From Pseudomonadota bacterium (lineage in GTDB: Bacteria > Pseudomonadota > Gammaproteobacteria > Competibacterales > Competibacteraceae), in NCBI GenBank assembly GCA_029780415.1, contig JAKOYN010000073.1, forward strand, positions 1 to 39,623: DNA of 39,623 bases. Direction: 5' to 3'. Shown here in pieces: positions 1,100 to 28,801 of the stretch. Within the stretch, counting starts at the first letter, position 1, and every line of letters starts with the position of its first letter. Position numbers and translations under genes: made by a program. Below the pieces are notes generated by a model. It worked only from the letters and a program-made list of their open reading frames with translations, did not search any database and was not told the origin of the DNA.

Positions 1100-2302
1100 A
1101 TGCGCACCGGATCAATCCTGTTAACCATCATCCTGCTGTTCGTGCTCGATCTGGGCAGCGCGCGCGCCGATGAAGCTTCTTGGCTGGATACCCTGCAAGT
1201 GCATGGTTTCGCCAGCCAGGCCGCCGTGCAAACCAGCGATAATCATTTTTTCGGTGACAGCGACGATCAGTTCTCGCTGGACTTCACCGAACTGGGTATC
1301 AACGCCTCGCTGCAGCCGCAACCCTGGCTGCTGCTGTCTGGCCAATTGCTGTCGCGGCGCGCCGGCGAGATGTACGATGGCAGCCCGACTGTTGACTATG
1401 CGCTGGCCGATATCACCTTCGCCGCCACCCCTGATTACCTGCTGGATTTGCGCATTGGGCGCATCAAGAATCCGCTCGGACTGTACAACGAAACCCGCGA
1501 TGTGCCCTTCACCCATCCGGGCATCTTCCTGCCCCAGGTGGTCTATTACGACCGGGTGCGCAACCTGATGCTCGCCTCCGATGGCATGATGCTCCATGGC
1601 GAGCTGTATGGTGATACCGGCACGTTTACATTCACCCTTGGCGGCGGCCAGTCCGTCATGGACGAAAATGTCGAGTGGACCTACCTCGGCTATGACTTCG
1701 ACGGCGAACTGAAACCGGATGGCAATACCGGGATTGCCAGCTTCTGGTACACGCTGCCGGGCGATCAACTCAAATTCGGCCTGAGCGGCGCGGCCTTGTC
1801 CATGCATTTCAACCCCGGCCCGTATTCGCCACTCAGTAATGGCACCACTGAACTCCTCTATTGGATCGCCTCCATCCAGTACGACGCCGAAGACTGGACC
1901 CTGTCGGCCGAGTACGCCAGCGAACCACTCGAATGGCGTGACTATGGCCCCTTTTTCATGAATCGCAAGGTTACCACCGAGGGCTATTACCTGCAGGGAC
2001 TCTACCGGATCCGTCCCGATATCCAACTGATGCTGCGCTACGAGGAAGGCTTTGCCGACCGCAATAACCGCGCGGGCACGCCACCACCAGGCGTTACTGC
2101 GGGCCTGTTGCCACCTTACGCCAACTTCTCCAAGATCTGGACCACGGGGCTGCGCTGGGACATTGACCGCAACTGGATGCTGCGCGTCGAGTACCAGCGC
2201 CACCACGGAACCTTCGTGCTATCGCCCCGGGAAAATCTCGATCCTGGCCAGTTGCGCGAGGATTGGGATCTATTCGCCATCCAGGCCGCGTTTCGTTTCT
2301 AA
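1100..2302 (+). CDS. Outer-membrane beta-barrel protein, family unassigned
   Basis: The N-terminus, MRTGSILLTIILLFVLDLGSARA, is a signal peptide. Aromatic residues alternate along the sequence, and the C-terminus ends ...AIQAAFRF with a terminal Phe, typical of OMP barrels. Confidence 0.7.
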   Translation: MRTGSILLTIILLFVLDLGSARADEASWLDTLQVHGFASQAAVQTSDNHFFGDSDDQFSLDFTELGINASLQPQPWLLLSGQLLSRRAGEMYDGSPTVDYALADITFAATPDYLLDLRIGRIKNPLGLYNETRDVPFTHPGIFLPQVVYYDRVRNLMLASDGMMLHGELYGDTGTFTFTLGGGQSVMDENVEWTYLGYDFDGELKPDGNTGIASFWYTLPGDQLKFGLSGAALSMHFNPGPYSPLSNGTTELLYWIASIQYDAEDWTLSAEYASEPLEWRDYGPFFMNRKVTTEGYYLQGLYRIRPDIQLMLRYEEGFADRNNRAGTPPPGVTAGLLPPYANFSKIWTTGLRWDIDRNWMLRVEYQRHHGTFVLSPRENLDPGQLREDWDLFAIQAAFRF

Positions 2303-2313
2303 AAGGCAGCGCC

Positions 2314-17887: not shown

Positions 17888-19774
17888 TCACAGTTCGGCC
17901 AGATTACCCTTCTCCTCCAGCCAGTTCTTGCGATCACCGGCGCGCTTTTTCGCCAGCAGCAGATCCATCAGCGCCAGGGTCGTATCGGCACCATCCAGGG
18001 TCAACTGCACCAGGCGCCGGGTGGCCGGGTCCATGGTGGTTTCACGCAGTTGCAGCGGATTCATCTCACCCAGGCCCTTAAAGCGGGTGACATTGACCTT
18101 GCCTTTCTTCTTCTCGGCAGCGATGCGATCAAGAATGCCCTGCTTCTCGGCCTCGTCCAGGGCATAGAACACCTCCTTGCCAACATCGATCCGGAACAGC
18201 GGTGGCATGGCCACATGCACATGGCCCGCCGCTACCAGCGGCCGGAAGTGGCGCACGAACAGCGCGCACAGCAGGGTGGCAATGTGCAGCCCGTCGGAAT
18301 CAGCGTCGGCGAGGATACACACCTTGCCATAGCGCAGCCCGCCCAGCTCCTCGGCGCCGGGATCAATACCGATCGCCACGGCGATATCGTGTACTTCCTG
18401 CGAGGCCATCACCTCGGCCGAATCGACTTCCCAGGTGTTGAGAATCTTGCCGCGCAGGGGCATCACTGCCTGGAATTCGCGGTTACGCGCCTGCTTGGCC
18501 GAGCCACCGGCGGAATCGCCCTCGACCAGAAACAGCTCGGTGCGCGCCAGATCCTGCGCGGTGCAGTCGGTGAGCTTACCGGGCAGCGCCGGGCCACTGG
18601 TGACCTGTTTGCGCACCACCTTGCGGCTGGCGCGCAGACGCCTGTGGGCATTAGCCAGCGCCAGTTGCGCGATGCGCTCGCCCATCTCGGGGTGCTGATT
18701 CAGCCACAGGCTCAGCGCGTCCTTGACCACGCCGGCGACGAACACCGCGCATTCGCGCGAGGACAGCCGTTCCTTGGTCTGGCCGGAGAACTGCGGATCA
18801 GCCAGCTTGACCGAGAGCACATAGCAGCAGCCTTCCCAGACATCTTCCGGGGCGATGCGCAGGCCGCGCGGTACCAGATTGCGGAACTCGCAAAATTCGC
18901 GCACCGCATCGGTCAGGCCGCCGCGCAGACCGTTGACATGCGTGCCGCCCTGCGGGGTGGGAATCAGGTTGACATAGCTTTCCATGACCGGCTCGCCACC
19001 GTCCGGCAGCCAGGTCAGCGCCCAGTCGGCGGCTTCATGGGCGCTGCTGACGTGGCCGACAAACGGTGGATCAGGCAACAACGCGGTCTGACCGAGTGCC
19101 TCGCGCAGGTAATCGGTAAAGCCATCCTGGTAATGCCAGATGATCTGCTCGCCGCTAGCCTCGTCGCTGAAGCTGACCTTCAGCCCCGGACACAGCACAG
19201 CCTTGGCGCGCAGCACATGCTTAAGGCGCGACACGGAGAATTTGGGTGCATCGAAATAGCGCGCATCAGGCCAGAAACGCACCGTGGTGCCGGTGATCCG
19301 GCGCGCCACCGTGCCGACCTCGGCCAGATCGGACACCTTGTCGCCGCCGGCAAAGGCGATGTGATACTGGCGACCGTTGCGCCGCACCCAGACCTCAAGA
19401 CGGCTGGACAGGGCATTCACCACCGACACGCCCACACCGTGCAGGCCACCGGAAAACTGGTAATTGCGGTTGGAAAACTTACCGCCGGCATGCAGACGGG
19501 TCAGGATCAGTTCGACGCCGGGAATGCCTTCCTCGGGGTGAATATCGACCGGCATGCCGCGGCCATCGTCCTCGACTGAGAGCGAGCCGTCGGCATACAG
19601 CACCACGCTGATGGCGCGGGCGTGGCCGGCGATGGCCTCATCGACGCTGTTGTCGATCACTTCCTGAGCCAGGTGGTTGGGCCGGCTGGTATCGGTGTAC
19701 ATGCCGGGGCGCTTGCGGACTGGGTCCAGACCGCTGAGGACTTCGATGGCGGAGGCGTCGTAGGACGTGTTCAT
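17888..19774 (-). CDS. parE: DNA topoisomerase IV subunit B
   Basis: The type II topoisomerase ATPase domain (MNTSYDASAIEVLSGLDPVRKRPGMYT) and Toprim domain are present. The ~628-aa length fits ParE rather than the ~800-aa GyrB. Confidence 0.85.
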   Translation of the reverse strand: MNTSYDASAIEVLSGLDPVRKRPGMYTDTSRPNHLAQEVIDNSVDEAIAGHARAISVVLYADGSLSVEDDGRGMPVDIHPEEGIPGVELILTRLHAGGKFSNRNYQFSGGLHGVGVSVVNALSSRLEVWVRRNGRQYHIAFAGGDKVSDLAEVGTVARRITGTTVRFWPDARYFDAPKFSVSRLKHVLRAKAVLCPGLKVSFSDEASGEQIIWHYQDGFTDYLREALGQTALLPDPPFVGHVSSAHEAADWALTWLPDGGEPVMESYVNLIPTPQGGTHVNGLRGGLTDAVREFCEFRNLVPRGLRIAPEDVWEGCCYVLSVKLADPQFSGQTKERLSSRECAVFVAGVVKDALSLWLNQHPEMGERIAQLALANAHRRLRASRKVVRKQVTSGPALPGKLTDCTAQDLARTELFLVEGDSAGGSAKQARNREFQAVMPLRGKILNTWEVDSAEVMASQEVHDIAVAIGIDPGAEELGGLRYGKVCILADADSDGLHIATLLCALFVRHFRPLVAAGHVHVAMPPLFRIDVGKEVFYALDEAEKQGILDRIAAEKKKGKVNVTRFKGLGEMNPLQLRETTMDPATRRLVQLTLDGADTTLALMDLLLAKKRAGDRKNWLEEKGNLAEL

Positions 19775-20121
19775 GAGGCGCGGCGATATCCAGGCACGTT
19801 GAAGTAGCAAGTCCACCCGACCAGTGGACGGCTGCGCATTATACGCAAGGCGGCGTGCCGCAAAACCACCGCTGGACCACGCGCTTCAGGCACCGGCGGC
19901 GCGCTGCGATCACGGCAACCCCCAGCCGATACGGATCGGTACCGACCGACCGCCCGTTTTTCAGACGCTTTTTCATGCCCTGCCCAATCTCCCGCTAACA
20001 CTGCGGATCTGTTTGCTTTTTGCCTACCGAGACACAGCAATGCCCGGCATATTGTCTTTTTTATTGAACAAATGCGCAGGGCCGGTTTGCGCTGGTTATT
20101 GCAGGCTTTTTCCCGAAGGCG

Positions 20122-20140
20122 GAATAAAACCGTTTTATTC
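20122..20140. promoter_or_regulatory. Perfect 19-bp palindrome, a candidate enhancer (UAS) for the sigma-54 activator
   Basis: GAATAAAACcgGTTTTATTC has 9-bp inverted arms with a 1-nt centre. It lies ~65-80 bp upstream of the -24 element, and an AT-rich tract sits between them. Confidence 0.45.
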
Positions 20141-20202
20141 ATGACACAGATTCGATTTACGGTCATTCAATTAATTATTATTAAAAACATCAAGTTAACG
20201 AT

Positions 20203-20218
20203 TGGCACGATGGTTGCT
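20203..20218 (+). promoter_or_regulatory. Sigma-54 (RpoN) promoter, -24/-12 elements
   Basis: TGGCACGatggTTGCT is a perfect match to TGGCACG-N4-TTGCW, with GG at 20204-20205 and GC at 20216-20217. It lies ~84 bp upstream of the ATG of the first small secreted protein gene. Confidence 0.8.
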
Positions 20219-20300
20219 AAATCCTTATCGACGCTGAATCTCTGGCGTCTTCGGTAAAAAGCAAGATGCCCTGCATCACTTCATTATTGGAGGCAATCTC

Positions 20301-20588
20301 ATGAAAACCAAACTGTATAGCGCTATTGTCGGTGCCACTCTGCTGGCCGCTTCCGGTCTGGCCATGGCTGAAACCCCGCTGACCACCAGTCAGATGGACG
20401 GCGTGACTGCGGGTGGCGTCGCCACAGCAACGGCACTCGCGGCAGCGGCGGGCAAATACCTAGCGGCGACCGTAACCGAAACTGAAACCATCGTTCAGGG
20501 TGTGCTGCTGGTGCCGGTACAAGTCGGCAGCATTTGGGTCGTCGGCACAGGCGCGGGATCCTATTCCGAATCCTATGCCCACAATTAG
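20301..20588 (+). CDS. Small secreted protein, paralog 1 (Sec signal peptide plus Ala-Gly leader-like segment)
   Basis: MKTKLYSAIVGATLLAASGLAMA|ETPLTTSQMDGVTAG|GVATATALAAAAG... has an AXA signal-peptidase site followed by the conserved segment L-[ST]-x-x-[QD]-[ML]-D-x-[VI]-[TS]-A-G. A GGAGG Shine-Dalgarno sits 7 nt upstream. It is the first gene after the sigma-54 promoter. Confidence 0.7.
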   Translation: MKTKLYSAIVGATLLAASGLAMAETPLTTSQMDGVTAGGVATATALAAAAGKYLAATVTETETIVQGVLLVPVQVGSIWVVGTGAGSYSESYAHN

Positions 20589-20644
20589 CTCAGCTTTCCG
20601 GCGTAAGCACTAAACATTTGGCTGACTTATTCAGGAGACTCACC

Positions 20645-20959
20645 ATGAAACGTTTCGCGATTCTTGCCGCCGCCGCCCTGCTGGGCGCCACCAGTTATGC
20701 TAATGCCGAGACCGTGCTGTCCGGCCCGCAAATGGATCAGATCAGCGCAGGTCTTTTCGGTCTTGCGATCACCGAAGGCATGGCCATCGCCACCGGTGAT
20801 ATTGGCTCCCTGTCAACCACAAATTCGGTGAGCGGCGTTAATCTGCTTGCTCCAAACCCAATCGCCTATAGCGCGACCGCTAGCGCTGCCATAGCGACCG
20901 GCTTCCTGGGCGCGGTTGCCGGCAGTCAATCGGCAAGTGGCTCGGAGCTCGGCAACTAA
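20645..20959 (+). CDS. Small secreted protein, paralog 2
   Basis: MKRFAILAAAALLGATSYANA|ETVLSGPQMDQISAG|LFGLAITEG... shows the same signal-plus-leader motif. The mature part is Ala/Ser/Thr/Gly-rich. Confidence 0.7.
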   Translation: MKRFAILAAAALLGATSYANAETVLSGPQMDQISAGLFGLAITEGMAIATGDIGSLSTTNSVSGVNLLAPNPIAYSATASAAIATGFLGAVAGSQSASGSELGN

Positions 20960-21044
20960 GTTGCGAGTCTCTCGAAAGAGCGGTTATCAAACCTTGCGGC
21001 GCGATGACCGCTCGCGCACGACTCAAGCATTGGAGATAGACAAC

Positions 21045-21524
21045 ATGATCAAGCATATGCAGTTAAGCGCTCTATCCCTGTGCGCCTTGACCGCGACCGC
21101 TATTGCAGCGCCACCATCACAAAATCCGCTGACACTATCCAGCATTGACCTGGATCGTGTGACCGCAGGCGGCGTCGTCAATGGCGTTGTTACAGCTTCG
21201 GCAATCGCCTACGGTCCATCGGACGCCATAACCGATACCAGTACATTTTCCAGCACGACACTGAGTCCGGGACCCACAGCCGCGCAGAATTCCACATTGG
21301 TTGTAGTTGTCGGTTCAGCAACCGCCTATGGCGGACTCGGCGGCACCACGGCAACGGCAACTGACAGTGCGATTAATTCCGCCACTACCAACACCGTTGG
21401 CCATACCTACGAAATTAGCCTGCAGGGCCATCTCGCTTCATCCTCGACGGTGTTTGCCTATGAGCTCGGTCGCCCCGCGCAACTCGGTCAGGGCGCTAGT
21501 ACACCGGTGGTATCACCGTATTAG
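21045..21524 (+). CDS. Small secreted protein, paralog 3
   Basis: MIKHMQLSALSLCALTATAIA|APPSQNPLTLSSIDLDRVTAG|GVVNG... shows the same motif. The mature part is Thr/Ser/Ala/Gly-rich and low-complexity. Confidence 0.7.
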   Translation: MIKHMQLSALSLCALTATAIAAPPSQNPLTLSSIDLDRVTAGGVVNGVVTASAIAYGPSDAITDTSTFSSTTLSPGPTAAQNSTLVVVVGSATAYGGLGGTTATATDSAINSATTNTVGHTYEISLQGHLASSSTVFAYELGRPAQLGQGASTPVVSPY

Positions 21525-21529
21525 CCGAT

Positions 21530-21553
21530 CAGGCGTCCCTTCCCGGACGCCTG
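21530..21553 (+). terminator. GC-rich hairpin (9-bp stem) just after paralog 3, with no U-tract; a possible partial terminator or attenuator
   Basis: CAGGCGTCC-cttccc-GGACGCCTG starts 6 bp after the stop codon at 21522-21524. Confidence 0.35.
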
Positions 21554-21603
21554 CGCCGTGCGTGTCCCGGCAATTCCTTCTAGACGGCAGGATCGAGATA
21601 CTC

Positions 21604-22065
21604 ATGAATATGCAAAGCCGATTTCTTTCCCGCACCGGATTCGCTGGCATTTTGGCGCTATTTATACCTCTGGGATCACTCGCTGCTGAAACCACTAGCC
21701 CGGCAGCGACCGTAATTATTCGTTGCGCCTGGCCCGGACCCGCGACGAATCCGGACAATGCCCCTGCCACCGATGGCAACAGCGCTTGCACCTGCGTGAG
21801 CAACGGCAATGGCAGCACCTGCAGTTGCACCAGCGGCGCGGCGACCCCGGTCAATAGCGGCTCCACACCCGTCTTCACCGTCGATGCCAGCTCCAACACA
21901 CCTGCAACCCTGGTCGAGCACCTGAAAACCGCCACCAGTTGCGCCGATGCCAGGGCGTTCACCGAATCCGCCAGTGACGGCGCCCGCCAAGCCTGTACCC
22001 CCCTGGCCAGCGGCTCGGTGAATGCCCTGCTTTATTCCTGCACCGTTCCCGGCACTCCACTGTAG
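21604..22065 (+). CDS. Cysteine-rich secreted protein (8 Cys) with no Ala-Gly leader motif
   Basis: MNMQSRFLSRTGFAGILALFIPLGSLA|AETTSP... is a signal peptide. The mature part carries C-x-C/C-x-C-type cysteine clusters. Confidence 0.6.
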   Translation: MNMQSRFLSRTGFAGILALFIPLGSLAAETTSPAATVIIRCAWPGPATNPDNAPATDGNSACTCVSNGNGSTCSCTSGAATPVNSGSTPVFTVDASSNTPATLVEHLKTATSCADARAFTESASDGARQACTPLASGSVNALLYSCTVPGTPL

Positions 22066-22102
22066 AACCTGTATACCCTGTATCCCAGCACTCGCGCCGC
22101 AG

Positions 22103-22144
22103 AAAAAAAGGAAACGGGCAAAAAACTCTCTGTCACCCGTTTCC
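22103..22144. terminator. Hairpin with an upstream A7 run after the Cys-rich gene; terminator-like when read on the minus strand, or weakly bidirectional
   Basis: AAAAAAA-GGAAACGGG-(17-nt loop)-CCCGTTTCC. On the minus strand the stem is followed by TTTTTTT. Confidence 0.4.
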
Positions 22145-22331
22145 AGCTAACGCGGCGCGGCACCACTTGCCCACGCACGCACCGCGCGACCCCACCTGAC
22201 CCATCGCCCACGCCATGTGCCCCGGTTGACATCATCCCCAGCAAGTCACATTTTTATTATTTATAGAATCAAAATTGATATTTTTATACTAGGATTGTGA
22301 TAGAAAAATCTGCACATGGAGTTGCCAAACC

Positions 22332-22982
22332 ATGCGTGCCAGCCTCATACCCTGCCGCTGCTTTCCCGCGATCATCCTCGCCACGCTCCTGCTCACCGGC
22401 CCGATCCAGACCACTCACGCCGAGGACTATCCGCCGGTCAAGTCACTGCTGGAAATACGCCGCGAACGGGTTGTAATCCAGAAATGGGATCTGAGTTGCG
22501 GCGCCGCAGCCCTGACCACCCTGTTGCGCTACCAGCACGGCGACCCGGTCACCGAAAAGGATGTCGCCACCGCGCTAATCAACCGTAGCGAATATCTGCG
22601 CAATCCTCAGCTCGTGCAGATTCGTGAGGGCTTTTCCCTACTCGACCTCAAGCGCTATGTCGATGGTCGCGGCTATCAGGGCACCGGCCTGGGCCAGCTC
22701 ACCCTCGACGACCTCAATCGGCGCGCACCGATCCTGATTCCGATCCAGACCCGGGGCTACAACCACTTCGTGGTGTTCCGTGGCCAACGCGACAACCGCG
22801 TCCTGCTCGCTGACCCGGCCTGGGGCAACCGCACCATGACCGTAGAGCACTTCATGCAGGCTTGGATCGACTACCCAAAAATCGGTCACGTTGGCTTCGT
22901 CGTCGAAGCAGCGCCCGGTCATCCACGCAGCGCATCCACACCGCTTGCACCGCGCCCCGAGGAATTCGTCACGTTCAATTGA
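22332..22982 (+). CDS. Standalone periplasmic C39-like cysteine peptidase (Peptidase_C39_2 / FapD-like architecture)
   Basis: A signal peptide is followed by the catalytic Cys context WDLSCGAAALTTLLRYQ, the His context GYNHFVVFRG, and the Asp context LLADPAWG. Length is 216 aa. There is no ABC-transporter fusion. Confidence 0.75.
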   Translation: MRASLIPCRCFPAIILATLLLTGPIQTTHAEDYPPVKSLLEIRRERVVIQKWDLSCGAAALTTLLRYQHGDPVTEKDVATALINRSEYLRNPQLVQIREGFSLLDLKRYVDGRGYQGTGLGQLTLDDLNRRAPILIPIQTRGYNHFVVFRGQRDNRVLLADPAWGNRTMTVEHFMQAWIDYPKIGHVGFVVEAAPGHPRSASTPLAPRPEEFVTFN

Positions 22983-23054
22983 GCCCCCTCCAGCACTTTC
23001 CGCCGCCATGCAGGGAACCGATTTCATCGTCAAATGCACGCAAGGAGATTATTC

Positions 23055-24299
23055 ATGGCCCGTCTGCCGTTTCGCTGGACCCGCCACCCCCTTTCACGCC
23101 ATCCGCTTACGAGCTGTTGCACGACGCTGGGCATCAGCACCCTGAGCCTGTGCCTGCTGAGCGGCGCGCCCGCCAGCGCCGACGATGTCATCACACAAGC
23201 CGACGCCCGCCAGTTACGCCAGGAACTGCGCGAACGGGATCGCATCATTGCTGAACTGCTGGCACGGGTCAGCGAACTGGAACGCCGCATGGATGGCGAC
23301 ACCACGCCACCGGCCAGCACCAGACGCCGCGCCACTGCCAGGACCCGTACCGCACAAATCACCGCGCCGGCACCTGTCGCCACACCTACACCCACGCCTG
23401 AACCGGTAAGCAGCGCGGTCGCGCCGCCTGCTCCGACCGGTCCCGGCGCGGTGGCCATCGATGCACAGGCTGCAGAACGGGCCCTGGAACGGACCCTGAC
23501 CGCCGAGGGCGCCCTGCTGCTGCCAGCGGGCAGTTACGACTTCGAGCCGTACTTCAATTACAACCGCCGGGTCAACGATGGCCCAACCCTGGTGCAAACC
23601 GACGCAGGCATCCTGGCGCGCAGCTTCGGGATCCGTCGCAATGAATTTGATCTGGGTCTGCGCGCCCGCGTCGGCCTGCCCTATGACGCCCAGGTGGAAC
23701 TCGACCTGCCCTATCGCAGCGTCAATCAGGAGCTGTTGCGACCCACCGGCCTGGCCGGCTTCGACAGCACTGAAAATACCGGCTCGGCCATCGGCGACAT
23801 CCGCCTGGGCATCGCCAAAACCCTCAGCCGCGAAAGTGGCTGGCAACCGGACCTGGTCGGACGCCTGACCTGGAACACCGGCACTGGGGAAATCGTCGAT
23901 CAGAACGTACCGATGGGCGATGGCTTCAACCGCCTGCGCGCCTCACTGACTGCGCTCAAGCGTCAGGATCCCCTGGCCTTCACTGCCAGCCTGGCCTACC
24001 AAACCACATTTGAAAAAGACGGTGTCCAACCTGGCAACGAGCTTGGCCTGTCCTTCGGCGTCTCGCTGGCCGCCAGCCCGGAAACCTCGCTGAGTCTTGC
24101 GCTGGCCCAGAGCTTTACTGCCGAAACCGAGTTGAATGGCCGCACGGTTACCGGCAGCGATCAGGTCAGCGGTGTGCTATTGCTCGGCGCATCCTCGGTG
24201 ATCAACCGGCAGACCCTGCTGCTGGTAACCGGCGCCATCGGCCTGACCGATGACGCCCCGGATTACGGCATCAGCATATCGCTACCGATCCGTTTCTAG
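23055..24299 (+). CDS. Outer-membrane beta-barrel with an N-terminal periplasmic coiled coil and Pro/Thr-rich linker (FapF-like architecture)
   Basis: The signal ends ...LLSGAPASA. The coiled-coil heptads are DARQLRQELRERDRIIAELLARVSELERRM, followed by the linker TPPASTRRRATARTRTAQITAPAPVATPTPTPEP. A putative plug helix is AQAAERALERTL. Amphipathic beta-strands end ...ISLPIRF. An AAGGAG Shine-Dalgarno precedes the ATG. Confidence 0.75.
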   Translation: MARLPFRWTRHPLSRHPLTSCCTTLGISTLSLCLLSGAPASADDVITQADARQLRQELRERDRIIAELLARVSELERRMDGDTTPPASTRRRATARTRTAQITAPAPVATPTPTPEPVSSAVAPPAPTGPGAVAIDAQAAERALERTLTAEGALLLPAGSYDFEPYFNYNRRVNDGPTLVQTDAGILARSFGIRRNEFDLGLRARVGLPYDAQVELDLPYRSVNQELLRPTGLAGFDSTENTGSAIGDIRLGIAKTLSRESGWQPDLVGRLTWNTGTGEIVDQNVPMGDGFNRLRASLTALKRQDPLAFTASLAYQTTFEKDGVQPGNELGLSFGVSLAASPETSLSLALAQSFTAETELNGRTVTGSDQVSGVLLLGASSVINRQTLLLVTGAIGLTDDAPDYGISISLPIRF

Positions 24300-25863
24300 A
24301 CCGTCGCCGCCACAGCAACAGCAGCGCCAGCCCGCCACCCAGCAGCCACAGGGTGGCGGCTTCCGCGAGCGGCGGTACCGGCACCGGCCCCGCGAAGGAC
24401 AGCAGCGCGCTGACCGGTGTCGAAACCGGCGTATCGATGGCCTCCAGCACCCCAGTGTCAAAACCCAGGAACAGTTCCGGCAGGTAGAACGAATCCATGC
24501 TGATGCGGCTGAGAAATGCCGCCAGCCAGCGGGAATCGCTCTGCGCGCCCGGTTCCGTCATCAGAATTGGCGCGAAGCCATTGAAACCCTGCACCGGATG
24601 CAAGCTGCCGTCCAGGACCACGGTCGGCGTGCGTGCAGTCAGCACCACATGATGGTTTCCATCGAACAGGCGCAGATCGCTACCGGAAAAATACCGCCGG
24701 CCCTCCAGAGTGCCCAACTGCGCCAGCGGATCAATCTCCAGAAATCCACCCAGCAGGGAATCCGCCAGTTCATCGGCATCGAATGTCCAGTCGCGCCCAC
24801 CCCGAAGCATATCGAGCGGAATCGGATCAAAAGCCAGCAGGCCGCTGGAGGGATCCCAGTGCACCTGCGGATCGCCAGGCGCACCGGACGCCCGGTAGCC
24901 GGCGGATTCTTCGACCTGTATCACCGCGCGGGGCGGTGCCTCGTAGGACTGCTCGGTGTGACGGCTGAACAGGATCAGCCCAAGCGGAGCAAATTCCCGA
25001 TCAAAGGCATCCAGCAGCGGCACCGCTACGCGCAACGGCTCCGCGTCCGGCTGCAGCAGCAGGCGACCCGCAGCAGCGTTGAACTGCGTGGCGAACCAGT
25101 CACGGATCGCGTCACTCCCTGGCACATCAAACACCCGGACCGTGGGCAAGCCATTTTCCAGGTAGCCCAGAAAACCGACCTCATCGTAGCGCACCGCGCC
25201 CGTCGCGCTGATCTGCACAGTCGTCAGCGTATCGCGCATGTAGGCCAGACTGCTCGCCGGCGTGCCCTGCCAGCGCAGCGTATCGAAATCCCAATCCAGA
25301 TGCAGGAACAGATCATCGCTCCCCCGGTCGGGATCGGCGCGGAGCTGAATACCCAGGGCCATACCCTCGGTCATGGCGGTGGCGCGGCCAAAGAGCGGCT
25401 CGGTAGCCCACGCAGCAGCATAGGTCGCCTGGCTTATCGCGAACTGGGCCAGCATGCCGCTCTCATCGAGAGCGCCACCAAGCCATGCCCCGGGGGCCAT
25501 CCCAACCGCGATGCCCGCCCCGGCAGTCGCTGCATGCGCACTGACCCCAGGCACTGCAATTGACGTAAATCCCAAGCCGTCCTGCACTGAACGCACCGTA
25601 GTCGCAAATGTCACCGTACTCGTCGTCGATCCCGCTTGGGCAAGCGCATAGGGATTGCCAATAAACTCAATACCCGCCGTTTCCGACAGCCCGATCGTCA
25701 TAGTCAAAATGCTTGCCGTTTCTGCAGCAGGCACAAAAGATGTTTGCGCAACAGCTGAATTCATAGCGATGCCAAGCCAGCCGATGCCCACTATTGAAAG
25801 CCATCCTTTGTCCCGAAAATACTGCTTTCCGTATTCAGCAAGCGCTCCCTTTAATCTCTGCAT
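24271..25863 (-). CDS. Secreted protein with a PEP-CTERM-like C-terminal sorting signal (variant Pro-rich motif)
   Basis: The N-terminus is MQRLKGALAEYGKQYFRDKGWLSIVGIGWLGIAMNSAVAQ. The C-terminus is ...VPVPPLAEAATLWLLGGGLALLLLWRRRSRNGSVAIC, giving a Pro motif, a TM helix and an Arg cluster. The 3' end overlaps the convergent OMP gene by 29 bp. The start is uncertain, since the ORF is open up to 26067. Confidence 0.6.
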   Translation of the reverse strand: MQRLKGALAEYGKQYFRDKGWLSIVGIGWLGIAMNSAVAQTSFVPAAETASILTMTIGLSETAGIEFIGNPYALAQAGSTTSTVTFATTVRSVQDGLGFTSIAVPGVSAHAATAGAGIAVGMAPGAWLGGALDESGMLAQFAISQATYAAAWATEPLFGRATAMTEGMALGIQLRADPDRGSDDLFLHLDWDFDTLRWQGTPASSLAYMRDTLTTVQISATGAVRYDEVGFLGYLENGLPTVRVFDVPGSDAIRDWFATQFNAAAGRLLLQPDAEPLRVAVPLLDAFDREFAPLGLILFSRHTEQSYEAPPRAVIQVEESAGYRASGAPGDPQVHWDPSSGLLAFDPIPLDMLRGGRDWTFDADELADSLLGGFLEIDPLAQLGTLEGRRYFSGSDLRLFDGNHHVVLTARTPTVVLDGSLHPVQGFNGFAPILMTEPGAQSDSRWLAAFLSRISMDSFYLPELFLGFDTGVLEAIDTPVSTPVSALLSFAGPVPVPPLAEAATLWLLGGGLALLLLWRRRSRNGSVAIC

Positions 25864-26158
25864 GAATCGCAAAGGTTTGCAATCATCTTGAGCCTGGAAC
25901 CGAATACGGCCATGGATATGCAAACTGCCACAGGTCAAATCCAGAAACGCTCCAGAATCCAGCAGCCGCAAACAGTCAGGCATCCATGAAGTCCAAGGCC
26001 AAACTGCCTGTAAAACCGCTGCATCATATAATCCCGCTCGCCCTATCCTGAATTGCATGGCGACCACCTCACAAGCGACATAAATCCTGAAATTCCATGT
26101 CAGAAAATCCCGTATCCATTTCCATAAATGGATTCCTGAACCCGGACACTAACAGAAC

Positions 26159-27544
26159 TTATTTCCTGAGTTTTCTATGCGCCTGATTATTTTCGTTCAT
26201 CTCTACATTGAACTTGCAAAGCCGGTACAGCGAGGCGCGGGAAATACCCAGAACCTTGGCCGCGCGGGTCAGGTTTCCATTAGCATGCTGAATCGCGATG
26301 TGGATTGCATCATGCTCGGCTCTCTTGCGCGCCTCTTCAATAGTGACGATTTGTCTGGAATTATTGCGCCGATCCAGATCCAGATGTTTCGGAGCAATCA
26401 GCCGGTCATCGCAAAACAGCACCGCTCGCTCGACCCGGTTGATCAACTCGCGCACATTGCCAGGCCAGTTGTGCACACGCATGACCCGCAAGGCTTCAAT
26501 GCTGAAGTCTCTGGGTTTCGACTTGTTTTGCTCCCTGAGAAATTTCTCTAGAAAACAATAAGCTAGATCTATAATATCGTCTTCTCTTTCCCGCAGTGGC
26601 GGCATTTGCAGATGCAGTGTATTCAAGCGATAGTACAGATCCTCACGAAAAGTACCCTCGACCACCGCGCGCTTCAAATCGCGATGGGTAGCGGCAATGA
26701 CACGCACATTCAGACCAATACTTTCAGTACCGCCCAAGCGCTCGATGGTTTTCTCCTGCAGAAAGCGCAGCAGGGCTATTTGTACATCCGGAGCGATATC
26801 GCCTATCTCATCAAGCAGAATTGTACCTTCGTTTGCAGCTTCAATCTTGCCCATCTTGAAGCGGTTTGCGCCGGTAAAGGCACCTCTTTCATATCCAAAA
26901 AGTTCGGATTGAATCAGATTGGCCGGCAATGCAGCACTGTTGACCGTAATCCATGGACCTTTCGCGCGCTGGGAAAATTGATGCAGGGCGCGCGCTGCCA
27001 GTTCCTTGCCTGTTCCGCTTTCGCCGGTAATCAACACGGTTTTTTCAACCGGCGCCATTTTAATGATCTGCTGCCGGACATTCTTCATGGCAGTGGACTT
27101 GCCAATTAGAATGTAATTTTTTTCAATCGACGTGTCGTAATTCCTGGCGATAGATCGTGCCAACTCACTCATGCCATAGGCGCGACAGAGAGCCGGCAAC
27201 AATCGCGACATGTCGATGGGTAATCGCTGGTAATCGTAGAAATGGTTCACAATCGTCTCGCGAACCGCAGGATTGGAGATGGCCGCATCATCGGTCATGG
27301 CAATCCATTGCACATGTTTTCCCAAACTAACCAGTTCCTGGATACAGCGCAAAAAATCCGGTTGATAGCGGGTCATAAACACGATACCCACCCGGTGATT
27401 ATCGGTAAAAATAGCTTTCTTGGCGCTGTTGATGTCATTAATCTTGGTCACATTCCAGTGATCAAGACCAATATTATCAACCAAACTCATACCGTCATGA
27501 TCAGAAAAAAAAAGCAAAACATCTCTACGGTTCAATGTGGACAT
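26159..27544 (-). CDS. Sigma-54-dependent transcriptional activator (bEBP) with a degenerate N-terminal receiver-like domain
   Basis: AAA+ motifs are present: Walker A GESGTGKE, GAFTGA, and ESELFGYERGAFTGA. The C-terminus has a Fis-type HTH (AAKVLGISRASLYRL). The N-terminal ~130 aa look like a receiver fold lacking the acceptor Asp. The gene is markedly AT-richer than its surroundings. Confidence 0.85.
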   Translation of the reverse strand: MSTLNRRDVLLFFSDHDGMSLVDNIGLDHWNVTKINDINSAKKAIFTDNHRVGIVFMTRYQPDFLRCIQELVSLGKHVQWIAMTDDAAISNPAVRETIVNHFYDYQRLPIDMSRLLPALCRAYGMSELARSIARNYDTSIEKNYILIGKSTAMKNVRQQIIKMAPVEKTVLITGESGTGKELAARALHQFSQRAKGPWITVNSAALPANLIQSELFGYERGAFTGANRFKMGKIEAANEGTILLDEIGDIAPDVQIALLRFLQEKTIERLGGTESIGLNVRVIAATHRDLKRAVVEGTFREDLYYRLNTLHLQMPPLREREDDIIDLAYCFLEKFLREQNKSKPRDFSIEALRVMRVHNWPGNVRELINRVERAVLFCDDRLIAPKHLDLDRRNNSRQIVTIEEARKRAEHDAIHIAIQHANGNLTRAAKVLGISRASLYRLCKFNVEMNENNQAHRKLRK

Positions 27545-28711
27545 TGCAACCCCCTAATGACCGCCATTATCCGAAAACCACAATACATCACATGGTTTTT
27601 ATCCAGCCAAGCCAAGTAAAAATCTTAGCAACTCCGAACCTTCGCCATGTGTTGATCGTCCACACTGATCCTAGTATGTATTTTCTTGATTGTGCAATTT
27701 GTCGATCATTTTTATGTCTTGTTTTTAAGATTTTTTATGTCAAAATTTTATGACGTTATACAAATATGGCACTTTTTATATTATTAATCAGCTCATTGAT
27801 GGCATCTTGGCATACGTATTCATGCATCGATACCCCATCATGCATCAACATAAGCATCCATGACTGGAATATTGACACATAAAACCGCCCGATCAAAACG
27901 GCATGATCTGGATTACTTATTCCATTATCAGGGATAACCATGATTTCCATGCACAATAATCCTATCGCATAAAAAGGCGACACAACCAAGCTCCAACAGT
28001 TTTTCCTTAATCAACTATTTTTATTAACTAAATGATTTTAAATAAAATTTATAATCGCATTCATGAAAATATACGCAATAAAGCATTTGCTTTTACAGAA
28101 CAGCATCCGTTGCCTTGCGAAAATCGATCAGAGCATTTCACCAAATAAATCAGGAGACGCACTATCAGGAAAGCCGAAAAGGAGAGACGTGGAGGAAAGC
28201 TAAACTGGCTGCTGCGTGTCTCACGCTGACACATTTGCCTAGCGCATGCCCGGCAAATCCTTCACCCTACAGAACAGGCGCATGTCATGGCATTCACATC
28301 CGCCGCGTGGACGCTGCGCAATGCGTCCCGGGCGACAGGCGCCATCAGGGGATTGATCGAGGAACAGCAAGCCGCTCGATTCGACCAGCGCCGCTCAATT
28401 GCGTGACTGCAGGGCATGCAGTCGCCCGCAGGAACCTTTCATGCGAGAGGTCCGTTGTGCAATCTGTTCCAACACACGGTCGAGCAGCAACCAAGAACGA
28501 TCCTCGAAATTGCACGCCAGCGCCACCCAGCCAATCACCGGCATGCTTCAACCATTGCCAACAGCCACAGGTTCGGAATGCAGGATCATGGCAAGCGCTA
28601 CGCACAGCCAACAGCCGCGCCCCTTGGCCTTGATCAAACCCAGGACTTTCGCTTACCTGACTTTTTCCGTCATACGCGGGAAAGCGGGTATCCATTCTTT
28701 TCAACAAGCTA

Positions 28712-28801
28712 CTGGATTCCCGCATACGCGGGAATGACGAACGACGCGATGTTGAGTCTGTATCTGACCTTCTGAATTCCCGCATACGCGGGAATGACGA
28801 A
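28712..28801. repeat. Two 30-bp direct repeats with internal dyad symmetry around a 30-bp unique spacer, plus a degenerate copy upstream; CRISPR-like geometry or a REP-type element
   Basis: CTGRATTCCCGCATACGCGGGAATGACGAA occurs at 28712-28741 and 28772-28801, a period of 60 bp. The core TTCCCGC-atac-GCGGGAA is a stem-loop. A degenerate CATACGCGGGAA copy lies at ~28671. No cas genes are present in the window. Confidence 0.5.

What the first reader, a model, noticed from the sequence alone, without database searches (positions are those of the whole stretch)
20122..20300. Perfect sigma-54 promoter with an upstream 19-bp palindrome driving the secreted-protein genes
TGGCACGatggTTGCT (20203-20218) matches the RpoN -24/-12 consensus at every specified position and has the correct GG-N10-GC spacing. 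It is the only such site I could find in the 39.6 kb. It lies ~84 bp upstream of the first small-protein ATG, whose GGAGG Shine-Dalgarno sits 7 nt before the start. The perfect palindrome GAATAAAACcgGTTTTATTC lies 65-80 bp further upstream, separated by an A/T-rich tract. This is the classical layout of enhancer site, bend and sigma-54 promoter. The only bEBP in the window is the divergently acquired activator at 26159-27544, which makes it the obvious candidate regulator.
Basis: seen in the sequence. Interest (0 to 1): 0.7.

Follow-up and report, generated by a model that had tools for sequence, protein, structure and literature searches.

The report
Sigma-54 promoter of a Fap-like secretion operon
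This is a genuine-looking sigma-54 promoter, with a DNA-bending site and an upstream palindrome, in front of small secreted-protein genes and their Fap-like export machinery; a neighbouring activator probably switches it on, and the same design is already known from the Pseudomonas amyloid (fap) operon.

Summary
TGGCACGATGGTTGCT (20203-20218, +) is the only exact sigma-54 consensus match in the window (0.01 expected by chance). GAATAAAAC-C-GTTTTATTC (20122-20140) is the window's only perfect palindrome with arms of 8 bp or more (p≈0.007).

Orthologous Competibacteraceae-type loci keep the -24/-12 elements. In the close clade the palindrome never varies (0/19 sites against a 21% background). 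In the distant clade only its core survives.

An IHF-like site (AAACATCAAGTTA, 20185-20197) abuts the -24 element. The same motif, at the same spacing, precedes at least 107 other sigma-54 promoters in metagenomes.

The operon encodes four small secreted proteins, three of them carrying a conserved 'QMDxVTAGG' double-glycine-like leader. It also encodes a periplasmic C39 peptidase (FapD/FilB-like) and a FapF-like outer-membrane channel.

The convergent gene at 26159-27544 encodes an enhancer-binding protein with a VpsR-type N-domain, an intact GAFTGA motif and an HTH_8 domain. Homologues sit beside such loci in several lineages, usually with a sigma-54 site ahead of the cargo genes. One of these is a true Fap cluster in Acidithiobacillus.

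This mirrors RpoN/BrfA control of fapA-E in Pseudomonas fluorescens. It is a new member of a known kind. Neither the palindrome as the activator's binding site nor the activating signal has been shown.

The parts
20007..20025 (.). Conserved upstream block 1 (ATCTGTTTGCTTTTTGCCT). It could be a distal activator or accessory site.
   Evidence: Invariant in the six close (clade A) orthologous regions, against 21% variable sites in the background. Function is inferred only.
20051..20072 (.). Conserved upstream block 2 (TTGTCTTTTTTATTGAACAAA), which contains a TTTTATTG copy of the palindrome half-site.
   Evidence: Invariant in clade A and partly conserved in clade B. L211 has CGTTTTTATTCAAC here.
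20122..20140 (.). Perfect 19-bp palindrome GAATAAAAC-C-GTTTTATTC, centred about 98 nt upstream of the predicted start. It is the candidate enhancer (UAS) for the activator.
   Evidence: chance p≈0.007; unique in the window. 0/19 sites vary in clade A. Only the core AAAAnCGTyTT is kept in clade B. Binding has not been shown.
20143..20154 (.). Conserved block GACACAGATTCG, adjacent to the palindrome.
   Evidence: An identical 12-mer lies at almost the same distance from -24 (3 nt nearer) in L208, where it is the right arm of the dyad ATCTGT-N10-ACAGAT. It occurs once in the window.
20185..20197 (+). IHF-like core AAACATCAAGTTA (7 of 9 specified positions of WATCAANNNNTTR), preceded by an A-tract and ending 5 nt before the -24 element.
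   Evidence: Conserved as TAAAAACA-N4-GTTA-N5/6-TGGCA in window, L001, L081 and L087. At least 119 metagenome loci carry it upstream of pspA-, nirB-, amtB-, flgB- and hsp20-like genes. L208/L209 have a perfect consensus at the same spacing.
20203..20218 (+). Sigma-54 (-24/-12) promoter TGGCACG-ATGG-TTGCT.
   Evidence: heuristic PWM score 19.1; the next best in the window is 13.7. Conserved in orthologues.
20227..20231 (+). Predicted transcription start (C of the GC at 20217 taken as -12, so +1 is about 20229). The 5' UTR would be about 72 nt.
   Evidence: Inferred from the standard sigma-54 promoter geometry. GACGCTGA at 20230-20237 is invariant in all nine orthologous regions.
20230..20249 (+). 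5'-terminal stem-loop GACGCU...GGCGUC in the predicted transcript.
   Evidence: present in both the MFE and centroid structures. The whole-UTR z-score is only -1.1, so the evidence is weak.
20289..20293 (+). Shine-Dalgarno sequence GGAGG.
20301..20588 (+). Small secreted protein 1 (95 aa): Sec signal peptide followed by the leader ...AETPLTTSQMDGVTAGG.
   Evidence: The leader is nearly invariant and the mature part is variable.
20645..20959 (+). Small secreted protein 2 (104 aa), with leader motif QMDQISAG.
21045..21524 (+). Small secreted protein 3 (159 aa), with leader motif DLDRVTAGG.
21604..22065 (+). Small secreted protein 4 (153 aa): signal peptide, Cys-rich, no GG-type leader motif.
   Evidence: 80% identical in L001.
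22332..22982 (+). Periplasmic C39 cysteine peptidase (FapD/FilB-like).
   Evidence: Pfam PF03412, 51 bits. NCBIfam FilB 101.9 bits and FapD 90.9 bits, both below their cut-offs. 5277 homologues.
23034..24299 (+). FapF-like outer-membrane channel with an N-terminal coiled coil.
   Evidence: NCBIfam FapF 50 bits, below cut-off. FapF is the only solved-structure sequence match, and the two share a C-terminal TDDAPD motif.
24271..26067 (-). Conserved accessory protein of about 570-598 aa with a hydrophobic, Arg-rich C-terminal sorting-type tail. It lies downstream of the activator on the same strand.
   Evidence: homologues in 11 of the 80 loci; weak VPDSG-CTERM match.
26159..27544 (-). Enhancer-binding protein: VpsR-type pseudo-receiver, sigma-54 AAA+ domain with GAFTGA, and HTH_8. 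It is the candidate activator of the 20203 promoter.
   Evidence: Synteny.

Best explanation
The 20.0-20.3 kb intergenic region holds a classical sigma-54 promoter for the operon 20301-24299. RNA polymerase with sigma-54 binds TGGCACG-N4-TTGCT (20203-20218) and should start transcription near 20229. An IHF-like site directly upstream (20185-20197) bends the DNA. This brings an activator bound about 100 nt upstream, at the palindrome 20122-20140 and possibly at the conserved blocks around it, onto the closed complex.

The activator is most likely the protein encoded convergently at 26159-27544. It has a non-phosphorylatable VpsR-type N-domain, a sigma-54 AAA+ domain with an intact GAFTGA motif, and an HTH_8 domain. 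By analogy with BrfA of Pseudomonas fluorescens it may respond to c-di-GMP.

The transcript encodes four small Sec-exported proteins; the first three carry a double-glycine-like leader. It also encodes a periplasmic C39 peptidase that probably removes that leader, and a FapF-like outer-membrane channel that exports the products.

Shown by sequence and comparison: the promoter, the IHF-like element, conservation of both, the gene contents, and the linkage between activator and locus. Inferred: the transcription start, which upstream element the activator binds, the activating signal, leader cleavage, and export.
For: Exact and unique consensus match, with 0.01 expected by chance.

The -24/-12 elements are kept in all nine orthologous regions while the spacer and flanks vary.

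The IHF-like motif occurs at identical spacing in at least 107 distinct independent sigma-54 promoters. Their unspecified positions follow the consensus: -21 is C or T in 100 of 107, -12 is C in 75 of 107, and -11 is A or T in 95 of 107. L208 and L209 carry a perfect IHF consensus there.

The palindrome is non-random (p≈0.007) and unique in the window. It is invariant in clade A, 0/19 against a 21% background, binomial 0.011. It is centred about 98 nt upstream of the predicted start.

No sigma-70-like promoter was found on the + strand upstream of the operon.

The bEBP has Sigma54_activat (225 bits), GAFTGA, HTH_8 and a VpsR N-domain, and it is the only bEBP in the window.

Homologous bEBPs are linked to C39/FapF-type loci in L002, L081, L211, L208, L209, L055 and the Noviherbaspirillum loci. 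In Acidithiobacillus one sits beside a Pfam-FapBC cluster, with TGGCATAGGGGTTGCT 127 nt upstream of the FapBC gene.

A linked bEBP is associated with a sigma-54 site ahead of the small genes: 4 of 8 loci against 5 of 58, Fisher p=0.009, and really 5 of 8.

Precedent: fapA-E has an RpoN -24/-12 promoter. It needs rpoN and brfA, a bEBP gene on the opposite strand downstream of fapF. BrfA senses c-di-GMP (PMC9207406, PMC13101488, bioRxiv 10.64898/2026.01.27.702051).
Against: There are no expression, start-site or binding data for this organism, which is apparently an uncultured Competibacteraceae bacterium.

The palindrome is not conserved as such in clade B (L211, L217, L081), although the HTH recognition helix was the same in the two clade-B-type activators compared (L002, L081). 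It therefore may not be the activator's site, or not its only one.

Sigma-54 sites are not a general feature of this system: 13 hits with score 10 or more upstream of 187 small genes, against 6.6 expected. Three Noviherbaspirillum loci have a linked bEBP but no sigma-54 site ahead of the small genes.

rpoN and the IHF genes are not in the window.

A 266-nt gap containing a stem-loop and an AT-rich tract precedes the C39 gene. The peptidase and channel may therefore have their own promoter.
Confidence: 0.7

Rival explanations
1. The promoter and the neighbouring activator work as described, but the 19-bp palindrome is not the activator's site. On this reading the activator binds the other conserved blocks (20051-20072, 20143-20154 or 20007-20025). 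The palindrome would then be bound by a different protein, such as a repressor or a nucleoid-associated protein, or would act as an A-tract/T-tract bend.
For: In clade B the perfect dyad is lost and only AAAAnCGTyTT persists, yet the HTH recognition helix (SRASLYRL) was identical in the two clade-B-type activators compared, L002 and L081. GACACAGATTCG is shared exactly with L208, where it forms a different dyad at the same position. Two further invariant blocks exist upstream.
Against: The palindrome lies at the canonical distance and is the longest invariant stretch in clade A (20121-20149). TTTTATTC-like half-sites recur in block 2 of the window and of L211, as expected for multiple sites of a single protein. 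The palindrome showed little resemblance to the Fur or ArgR boxes, but those consensus sequences were recalled from memory and not tested.
Confidence: 0.3
2. The sigma-54 promoter is real but is activated by an unlinked bEBP encoded elsewhere in the genome. On this reading the neighbouring bEBP controls only its own transcription unit (the 598-aa protein) or other targets.
For: bEBPs can act in trans from anywhere in the genome. Most C39/FapF-like loci have no linked bEBP. The Noviherbaspirillum loci have the bEBP without a sigma-54 site ahead of the small genes.
Against: The bEBP is linked to a sigma-54 site in at least five independent lineages, including a true Fap cluster. No other strong sigma-54 site in the window could serve as its target. 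The BrfA precedent has the same gene order (PMC9207406).
Confidence: 0.12
3. The consensus match is fortuitous. On this reading the operon is transcribed from an unrecognised sigma-70-type or other promoter.
For: A single 16-nt match can arise by chance, and no experimental data exist.
Against: The expected number of exact matches is 0.01. The site is intergenic, correctly oriented and 82 nt from the ATG. It is conserved in diverged orthologues while neighbouring bases change. It is flanked by the IHF-like element typical of sigma-54 promoters. No sigma-70-like site was found upstream on the + strand.
Confidence: 0.03

Closest known systems
fapA-E promoter of Pseudomonas fluorescens PF07/SBW25, controlled by RpoN and the c-di-GMP-sensing enhancer-binding protein BrfA (PMC9207406; PMC13101488; Guo et al. 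2024, Microbiol Res 287:127864, not held)
   Same: A -24/-12 promoter lies ahead of the first secreted-subunit gene. The operon contains a C39 peptidase (FapD) and ends with a FapF channel. The activator gene sits on the opposite strand downstream of the channel gene.
   Different: The cargo here is not FapB/FapC: there is no PF27129 hit. The peptidase and channel score far below the FapD and FapF equivalog cut-offs. An extra 598-aa protein lies between the channel and the activator. Orthology of the activator to BrfA, and c-di-GMP sensing, were not tested.
Classical sigma-54 promoters with an IHF site and upstream activator sites (Pu/XylR, nifH/NifA, glnHp2/NtrC, pspA/PspF; established knowledge)
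   Same: The order and distances match: UAS at about -100, IHF-like site, then the -24/-12 elements. pspA-like genes in metagenomes carry the same IHF-like motif at the same spacing.
   Different: Only one clear dyad is visible rather than the usual tandem pair. The IHF-like core matches 7 of 9 specified positions in the window.
Neisseria nap island: GG-motif peptides NapA-C, C39 peptidase NapP, FapF-like NapF, regulator NapR (PMC11798529)
   Same: Small peptides with a double-glycine cleavage motif are combined with a stand-alone C39 peptidase and a FapF-type channel on a horizontally acquired island.
   Different: The paper passages retrieved mention only a putative regulator, NapR, and no sigma-54 promoter or bEBP. 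The nap peptides are cationic and microcin-like. The proteins here are Ala/Gly/Thr/Ser-rich, 95-159 aa long, and have a Sec signal peptide ahead of the GG-type leader.
VpsR (Vibrio cholerae) and FleQ (Pseudomonas), c-di-GMP-binding bEBP-like regulators (PMC6158489; PDB 7v2b, 8p53)
   Same: The N-terminal domain matches Pfam VpsR (57 bits, above the cut-off). The central AAA+ domain is homologous to both.
   Different: VpsR lacks the residues needed to contact sigma-54 and works with sigma-70 (PMC6158489). This protein keeps GAFTGA and sits next to a perfect sigma-54 promoter.
PEP-CTERM-box response regulator PrsR (TIGR02915)
   Same: It is the best-scoring NCBIfam model for the activator (388.9 bits). 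The neighbouring 598-aa protein has a sorting-type C-terminal tail.
   Different: The score is below the model's cut-off of 502.6 bits. The N-domain is VpsR-type and lacks the receiver aspartate. No exosortase gene was found in the window.

Membership tests
Sigma-54 (-24/-12) promoter | GG and GC dinucleotides separated by exactly 10 nt, within TGGCACG-N4-TTGCW | tested here: met
   All 12 specified positions match at 20203-20218.
Sigma-54 (-24/-12) promoter | Intergenic, oriented towards a downstream gene, and more frequent than chance | tested here: met
   The site is 82 nt upstream of the ATG at 20301. 0.01 exact matches are expected and it is unique in the window.
Sigma-54 (-24/-12) promoter | Conserved at the same position in orthologous loci | tested here: met
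   Nine orthologous regions keep TGGCA(C/T)-N6-TTG(C/T)TA. The more distant loci L208, L209 and L087 have strong sites ahead of the cargo genes.
Sigma-54 (-24/-12) promoter | A cognate enhancer-binding protein with GAFTGA is available | tested here: met
   The protein encoded at 26159-27544 has Sigma54_activat (225 bits) and GAFTGA.
Sigma-54 (-24/-12) promoter | rpoN-dependent transcription starting about 12 nt downstream of the GC | not testable with these tools
   This needs RACE or dRNA-seq and an rpoN mutant or a heterologous host. rpoN is not in the window.
bEBP upstream activator site (enhancer) | A dyad-symmetric site about 80-150 nt upstream of the start | tested here: met
   A perfect 9-1-9 palindrome is centred at about -98.
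bEBP upstream activator site (enhancer) | Conservation in loci that carry orthologous activators | tested here: inconclusive
   Invariant in clade A (0/19). Only the core is kept in clade B. L211 and L217 have TAAAAA-N7-TTTTTA instead.
bEBP upstream activator site (enhancer) | An IHF site or intrinsic bend between the enhancer and the promoter | tested here: met
   An IHF-like core lies at 20185-20197. The same motif and spacing occur in at least 107 other sigma-54 promoters, and L208/L209 have the perfect consensus.
bEBP upstream activator site (enhancer) | Direct binding by the activator | not testable with these tools
   This needs EMSA or footprinting.
BrfA-type activator of fap operons | A bEBP gene on the opposite strand downstream of the FapF-type channel gene, with a sigma-54 promoter ahead of the first subunit gene | tested here: met
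   Gene order, compared with the description in PMC9207406 and bioRxiv 10.64898/2026.01.27.702051.
BrfA-type activator of fap operons | Sequence orthology to BrfA (D7M10_RS14495) | not tested
   The BrfA sequence and the 2024 paper were not available. Indirect support: a 47%-identical homologue flanks a Pfam-FapBC cluster in Acidithiobacillus.
BrfA-type activator of fap operons | Binds c-di-GMP | not testable with these tools
   This is a biochemical property. GGDEF/EAL genes neighbour several homologues, which is only suggestive.
Fap functional-amyloid operon (fapABCDEF) | FapB/FapC repeat subunits (PF27129) | tested here: not met
   The four small proteins hit no Pfam or NCBIfam family.
Fap functional-amyloid operon (fapABCDEF) | FapD and FapF equivalogs | tested here: not met
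   FapD scores 90.9 bits against a cut-off of 330, and FapF 50.1 against 700. They are homologous but outside the equivalog range. FapF is the only PDB match.
PEP-CTERM-box regulator PrsR (TIGR02915) | Score above the model's cut-off | tested here: not met
   388.9 bits against 502.6.

The most novel reading that the evidence does not exclude
The promoter may be the switch for a large and essentially undescribed branch of FapD/FapF-type secretion systems. Their cargo is a set of fast-evolving small proteins that share only a Sec signal peptide and an invariant 'PLTxxQMDxVTAGG' double-glycine-like leader. On this reading the leader is cut in the periplasm by the stand-alone C39 peptidase. In Competibacteraceae, which are abundant glycogen-accumulating bacteria of activated sludge, these products could be c-di-GMP-controlled fibre or matrix proteins that hold flocs and granules together. 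The sigma-54/pseudo-receiver bEBP module would be a mobile, low-GC regulatory cassette that has been attached to such systems repeatedly.
Probability: 0.3. Interest if true: 0.55.

Novelty: new member of a known kind. Interest (0 to 1): 0.35.

Why it matters
The result gives a concrete and testable regulatory model: sigma-54, an IHF-type bend, and a BrfA-like activator that may read c-di-GMP. The model applies to a secreted-protein system in an uncultured wastewater bacterium. It also extends the RpoN/BrfA logic of Pseudomonas amyloid genes to distant relatives of the FapD/FapF machinery.

The promoter fragment (about 20000-20300) and the activator gene could be moved into a reporter host. That would identify the signal controlling matrix or fibre production in Competibacteraceae. 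The conserved leader offers a way to test what periplasmic C39 peptidases of the FapD type actually cleave, which the 2018 review read here (PMC6173800) lists as undetermined.

Tried and rejected
1. Whether sigma-54 promoters are a general feature of this gene family. They are not: 13 hits with score 10 or more upstream of 187 small genes, against 6.6 expected. Several of those hits lie inside neighbouring coding sequence.

2. L002, the second-closest genome locus. It lacks the small genes in the contig and has no good site. It was later explained by L081 and L211, where an S8 protease gene lies between the small genes and the C39 gene.

3. The palindrome elsewhere in the window, for example for autoregulation of the activator. 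No copy was found with 3 mismatches or fewer, and there were no informative half-site copies.

4. A terminator or RNA-element reading of the region. The palindrome has a 1-nt centre and cannot form a hairpin. Rfam gave nothing in 19700-28700, and only sub-threshold hits at the pgk terminator. Folding of the 5' UTR is not exceptional (z = -1.1).

5. Sigma-70 promoter scan. It found none upstream on the + strand.

6. Comparison of the palindrome with the Fur, ArgR, NtrC and FleQ boxes, recalled from memory only. There was no convincing resemblance, and this was not a formal test.

7. Fetching the BrfA paper or sequence for a direct comparison failed.

8. A shared enhancer motif across distant loci (L055, L086, L087, L208). 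Each has its own dyad and no common consensus emerged.

9. (a GG-N10-GC count in all loci) was uninformative.
Full report
OBSERVATION. The sequence shows TGGCACGATGGTTGCT at 20203-20218 on the + strand. All 12 specified positions of TGGCACG-N4-TTGCW match, with GG at 20204-20205 and GC at 20216-20217. It is the only exact match in the 39,623 bases on either strand. Dinucleotide-preserving shuffles give 0.01 matches on average. With up to two mismatches the window holds 6 sites against 10 expected, so only the exact site stands out. A heuristic position-weight matrix scores it 19.1 bits, against 13.7 for the next best site in the window.

The palindrome is GAATAAAAC-C-GTTTTATTC (20122-20140, 19 bp). 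A perfect palindrome with 9-bp arms and a gap of 3 nt or less appears in 0.7% of shuffles of the 484-bp intergenic region. It is the only perfect palindrome with arms of 8 bp or more in the whole window. GGAGG lies at 20289-20293, 7 nt before the ATG at 20301.

CONTEXT. The region lies between two housekeeping blocks. On one side are glyA, the rib genes, nusB and parE, with parE at 17888-19816 on the minus strand. On the other are pgk, gap and tkt, from 28876 onwards on the minus strand. Between them is an island of about 9 kb.

- On the + strand the island carries four small proteins with Sec-type signal peptides: 20301-20588, 20645-20959, 21045-21524 and 21604-22065.
- Next comes a C39 peptidase with its own signal peptide (22332-22982). 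It hits Pfam PF03412, and its best NCBIfam models are FilB and FapD, both below their cut-offs.
- Then comes an outer-membrane protein (23034-24299). Its only NCBIfam matches are FapF and, more weakly, FilC, and its only solved-structure match is FapF. The two share a C-terminal TDDAPD motif.
- On the minus strand the island carries a 598-aa protein with a sorting-type tail (24271-26067) and an enhancer-binding protein (26159-27544).

The enhancer-binding protein has a VpsR-type N-domain, a Sigma54_activat domain (225 bits), an AAA lid and an HTH_8 domain. It keeps Walker A and GAFTGA but lacks the receiver aspartate. It is the only bEBP in the window. Its gene is 48.8% GC in a 61.6% GC window, and its orthologues in relatives are 35-38% GC. 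It is convergent with the operon, not divergent from it.

The closest genome match is a Candidatus Competibacteraceae MAG (L001, 96% identical peptidase).

THE CARGO. A scan of the 80 related loci plus the window found 187 small genes in 62 of them. These genes encode a signal peptide followed by [ML]D-x-[VI]-[ST]-A-G(G), typically '...EP-x-x-L-[ST]-x-x-Q-M-D-x-V-T-A-G-G'. They almost always sit beside the C39 peptidase and FapF-like gene pair. Among the 16 closest relatives of protein 1, the first 38 residues or so (signal peptide plus leader) are nearly invariant and the rest diverges to 55% identity.

The motif resembles the double-glycine leader cut by C39 peptidases. In the Acidithiobacillus Fap cluster, a 182-aa protein of unassigned identity has '...ELAKLRGG...' in a comparable position. 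None of the window's small proteins matches any Pfam or NCBIfam family, FapB/C included.

The system is therefore a relative of the FapD/FapF module with different cargo. This is the kind of co-localised fapD-fapF pair noted outside Pseudomonas (PMC6173800) and in the Neisseria nap island (PMC11798529). It is not a Fap operon in the strict sense.

IS THE PROMOTER REAL? I assembled orthologous upstream regions from eight further contigs that run from the parE side to protein 1 and aligned them with the window.

- Clade A comprises window, L215, L216, L001, L213 and L214. It keeps TGGCAC and TTGCT exactly, while the four unspecified spacer bases and the flanks change.
- Clade B comprises L211, L217 and L081. 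Its activator is about 63% identical. It has TGGCA(C/T)GGCTTTTGTTA at the aligned position, so -12 reads GT.

The TTGT variant also occurs upstream of pspA-like genes in metagenomes, so it is compatible with function.

Further away, L208 and L209 are Chromatiales-type loci with a linked activator 41% identical. They carry TGGCACTATGATTGCT and TGGCATTGTGATTGCA about 140 nt ahead of the first small gene. An Acidithiobacillus contig carries a 47%-identical activator next to a Pfam-FapBC, C39 and channel-type cluster, with TGGCATAGGGGTTGCT 127 nt upstream of the FapBC gene. L086 has TGGCATGGGGGTTGCT between the activator gene and downstream small genes.

Across the C39 loci, a linked activator goes with a sigma-54 site ahead of the small genes. 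The counts are 4 of 8 against 5 of 58 (Fisher p=0.009). L081 was miscounted because its first gene escaped my pattern, so the true figure is 5 of 8. Three of the five hits scored as activator-absent are truncated contigs. These data are not phylogenetically independent.

Family-wide, sigma-54 sites are not enriched: 13 hits against 6.6 expected. The three Noviherbaspirillum loci have the activator but no such site. Sigma-54 control is therefore a lineage-specific add-on that travels with the activator.

THE BEND. Immediately upstream of -24, the window, L001, L081 and the Acidithiobacillus locus share TTAAAAACA-N4-GTTA-N5/6-TGGCA. The core AAACA(A/T)NNNNTTA is a one- or two-mismatch version of the IHF consensus WATCAANNNNTTR (established knowledge). 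L208 and L209 have the perfect AATCAATTTTTTA at the same spacing.

I scanned the metagenome collection for TAAAAACA-N4-GTTA-N5/6-TGGCA-N6-TTG. The downstream genes include pspA-, nirB-, amtB-, flgB- and hsp20-like genes. In the 107 distinct sites the positions I had not specified follow the sigma-54 consensus: -21 is C or T in 100, -12 is C in 75, and -11 is A or T in 95.

The A/T tract therefore contains the generic bending element of sigma-54 promoters. This independently marks 20203-20218 as a true promoter.

THE PALINDROME. If the C of the GC at 20217 is -12, the start falls near 20229. The IHF-like core then spans about -44 to -32, and the palindrome centre lies at about -98. This is the textbook arrangement.

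Within clade A, 21% of upstream positions vary, but none of the 19 palindrome positions does (binomial 0.011). The invariant run extends over 20121-20149. Two other invariant blocks exist. One is 20007-20025. The other is 20051-20072, which contains TTTTATTG, a copy of the palindrome half-site. L211 has CGTTTTTATTC at that place.

In clade B the palindrome is not kept. The core AAAAnCGTyTT persists, and L211 and L217 form a different dyad, TAAAAA-N7-TTTTTA. L081 has no clear dyad. Yet the recognition helix of the activator's HTH was identical in the two clade-B-type activators compared, L002 and L081.

The adjacent GACACAGATTCG (20143-20154) is shared exactly with L208, where it is one arm of ATCTGT-N10-ACAGAT. 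No common enhancer consensus emerged across distant loci.

I conclude that a protein-binding element at 20121-20154 is very likely. That the palindrome is the activator's site is plausible, at roughly even odds, but it is not shown.

OTHER CHECKS.
- No sigma-70-like promoter was found on the + strand upstream of the operon.
- The parE promoter, with a TATAAT on the minus strand at 19838-19843, is about 280 bp away and separately conserved.
- Rfam finds nothing in the region.
- The predicted 5' UTR begins with a small hairpin (20230-20249), but overall folding is unremarkable.
- A 266-nt gap lies before the C39 gene. It holds a 9-bp stem-loop (22110-22144) and an AT-rich tract with a TTGACA. 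The peptidase and channel genes may therefore also have their own promoter. This would match P. fluorescens, where fapF is not co-regulated with fapA-E (PMC9207406).

COMPARISON WITH WHAT IS KNOWN. In P. fluorescens PF07, fapA-E has a -24/-12 promoter. [quoted passage not shown]

The window has the same design: a sigma-54 promoter, then subunit genes, a C39 peptidase and a FapF-type channel, then a convergent bEBP gene. It differs in the cargo, in the very distant peptidase and channel, and in the extra 598-aa protein.

The activator's N-domain is the VpsR type. Unlike VpsR, which lacks the residues needed to contact sigma-54 and works with sigma-70 (PMC6158489), it keeps GAFTGA. It scores below the cut-off of the PEP-CTERM regulator model. 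I could not obtain the BrfA sequence, so orthology to BrfA and c-di-GMP sensing remain inferences. The GGDEF/EAL genes next to several homologues, and one in the window at 2263-4725, are only suggestive.

VERDICT. This is a functional-looking sigma-54 promoter with an IHF-type bend and an upstream conserved dyad region. It is most likely fired by the neighbouring BrfA-like activator, and it drives a Fap-like secretion operon. It is a new member of a known kind and of moderate interest. The less ordinary part is what the promoter drives: a widespread and barely described family of GG-leader small proteins tied to FapD/FapF-type machinery.

Noticed in passing
window 20301-21524; 62 of 81 loci (for example L012 10737-13130, L005 2936-8208): I found 187 small secreted proteins that share a signal peptide and an invariant double-glycine-like leader, '...PxxL[ST]xxQMDxVTAG(G)'. 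They occur in multiple paralogous copies next to a periplasmic C39 peptidase and a FapF-like channel. In the protein-1 family the leader is nearly invariant while the mature part diverges quickly. No Pfam or NCBIfam family covers them.
   Followed up: partly
L008 10720-10745, L012 10640-10665, L041, L017, L021, L026, L036 (upstream of the first small gene): The Oxalobacteraceae (Noviherbaspirillum-type) loci share a different conserved motif, (G)ATCGAAATTTCnTACTTAT, about 90-120 nt ahead of the first small gene. They have no sigma-54 site there, although a homologous bEBP is linked. What this motif binds is unknown.
   Followed up: no
window 26159-28100: The activator gene (48.8% GC) and the 1.3 kb of apparently non-coding DNA upstream of it (down to 42% GC) are far below the window average of 61.6%. 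The orthologous activator genes in L002 and L081 are 35-38% GC. This suggests a foreign regulatory cassette that is slowly adjusting to the host's composition.
   Followed up: partly
window 28716-28741 and 28776-28801 (partial copy near 28665-28690): Two copies of a REP-like palindromic element, ATTCCCGCATACGCGGGAATGACGAA, lie just inside the island boundary next to the pgk terminator.
   Followed up: no
L081 10262-10277 (-), L211, L217, L055 8479-8494: The orthologous promoters in the second Competibacteraceae clade, and in Lamprobacter, read TTGT instead of TTGC at -12. The same variant precedes pspA-like genes in metagenomes (L109, L145, L166, L196).
   Followed up: partly
window 22066-22331: The 266-nt gap between the fourth small gene and the C39 gene contains a perfect 9-bp stem (22110-22118 / 22136-22144) and an AT-rich tract with TTGACA at 22227-22232. 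This could be an attenuator plus an internal promoter that uncouple the peptidase and channel from the subunit genes.
   Followed up: no
window 24271-26067 (-); homologues in L004, L022, L030, L034, L044, L051, L055, L062, L081, L208, L209: A protein of about 500-600 aa recurs in these loci, often directly after the activator gene. It has no known domain, and the window's copy carries a hydrophobic, Arg-rich C-terminal tail (weak VPDSG-CTERM match). Its 3' end overlaps the 3' end of the channel gene by 29 nt, in convergent orientation.
   Followed up: partly
L002 391-3225, L081 5830-8664, L211 10481-13300, L217 1937-4756: In the second Competibacteraceae clade, a 940-aa secreted S8 subtilisin-like protease with CLIPPER repeats lies between the small genes and the C39 gene. 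It is absent from the window, which has a fourth, Cys-rich small protein instead.
   Followed up: no
window 2263-4725; L086 4314-6437 and 10661-11800; L088 11709-14009; L087 21018-21389: GGDEF/EAL (c-di-GMP turnover) genes lie next to several homologues of the activator, and one lies 16 kb away in the window. This fits the c-di-GMP-sensing precedent of BrfA but does not prove it.
   Followed up: no
window 19834-19846 (minus strand): GCGTATAATGCGC, which contains a perfect TATAAT, is conserved in all orthologous regions. It is probably the -10 element of the divergent parE promoter and is separate from the sigma-54 control region.
   Followed up: no
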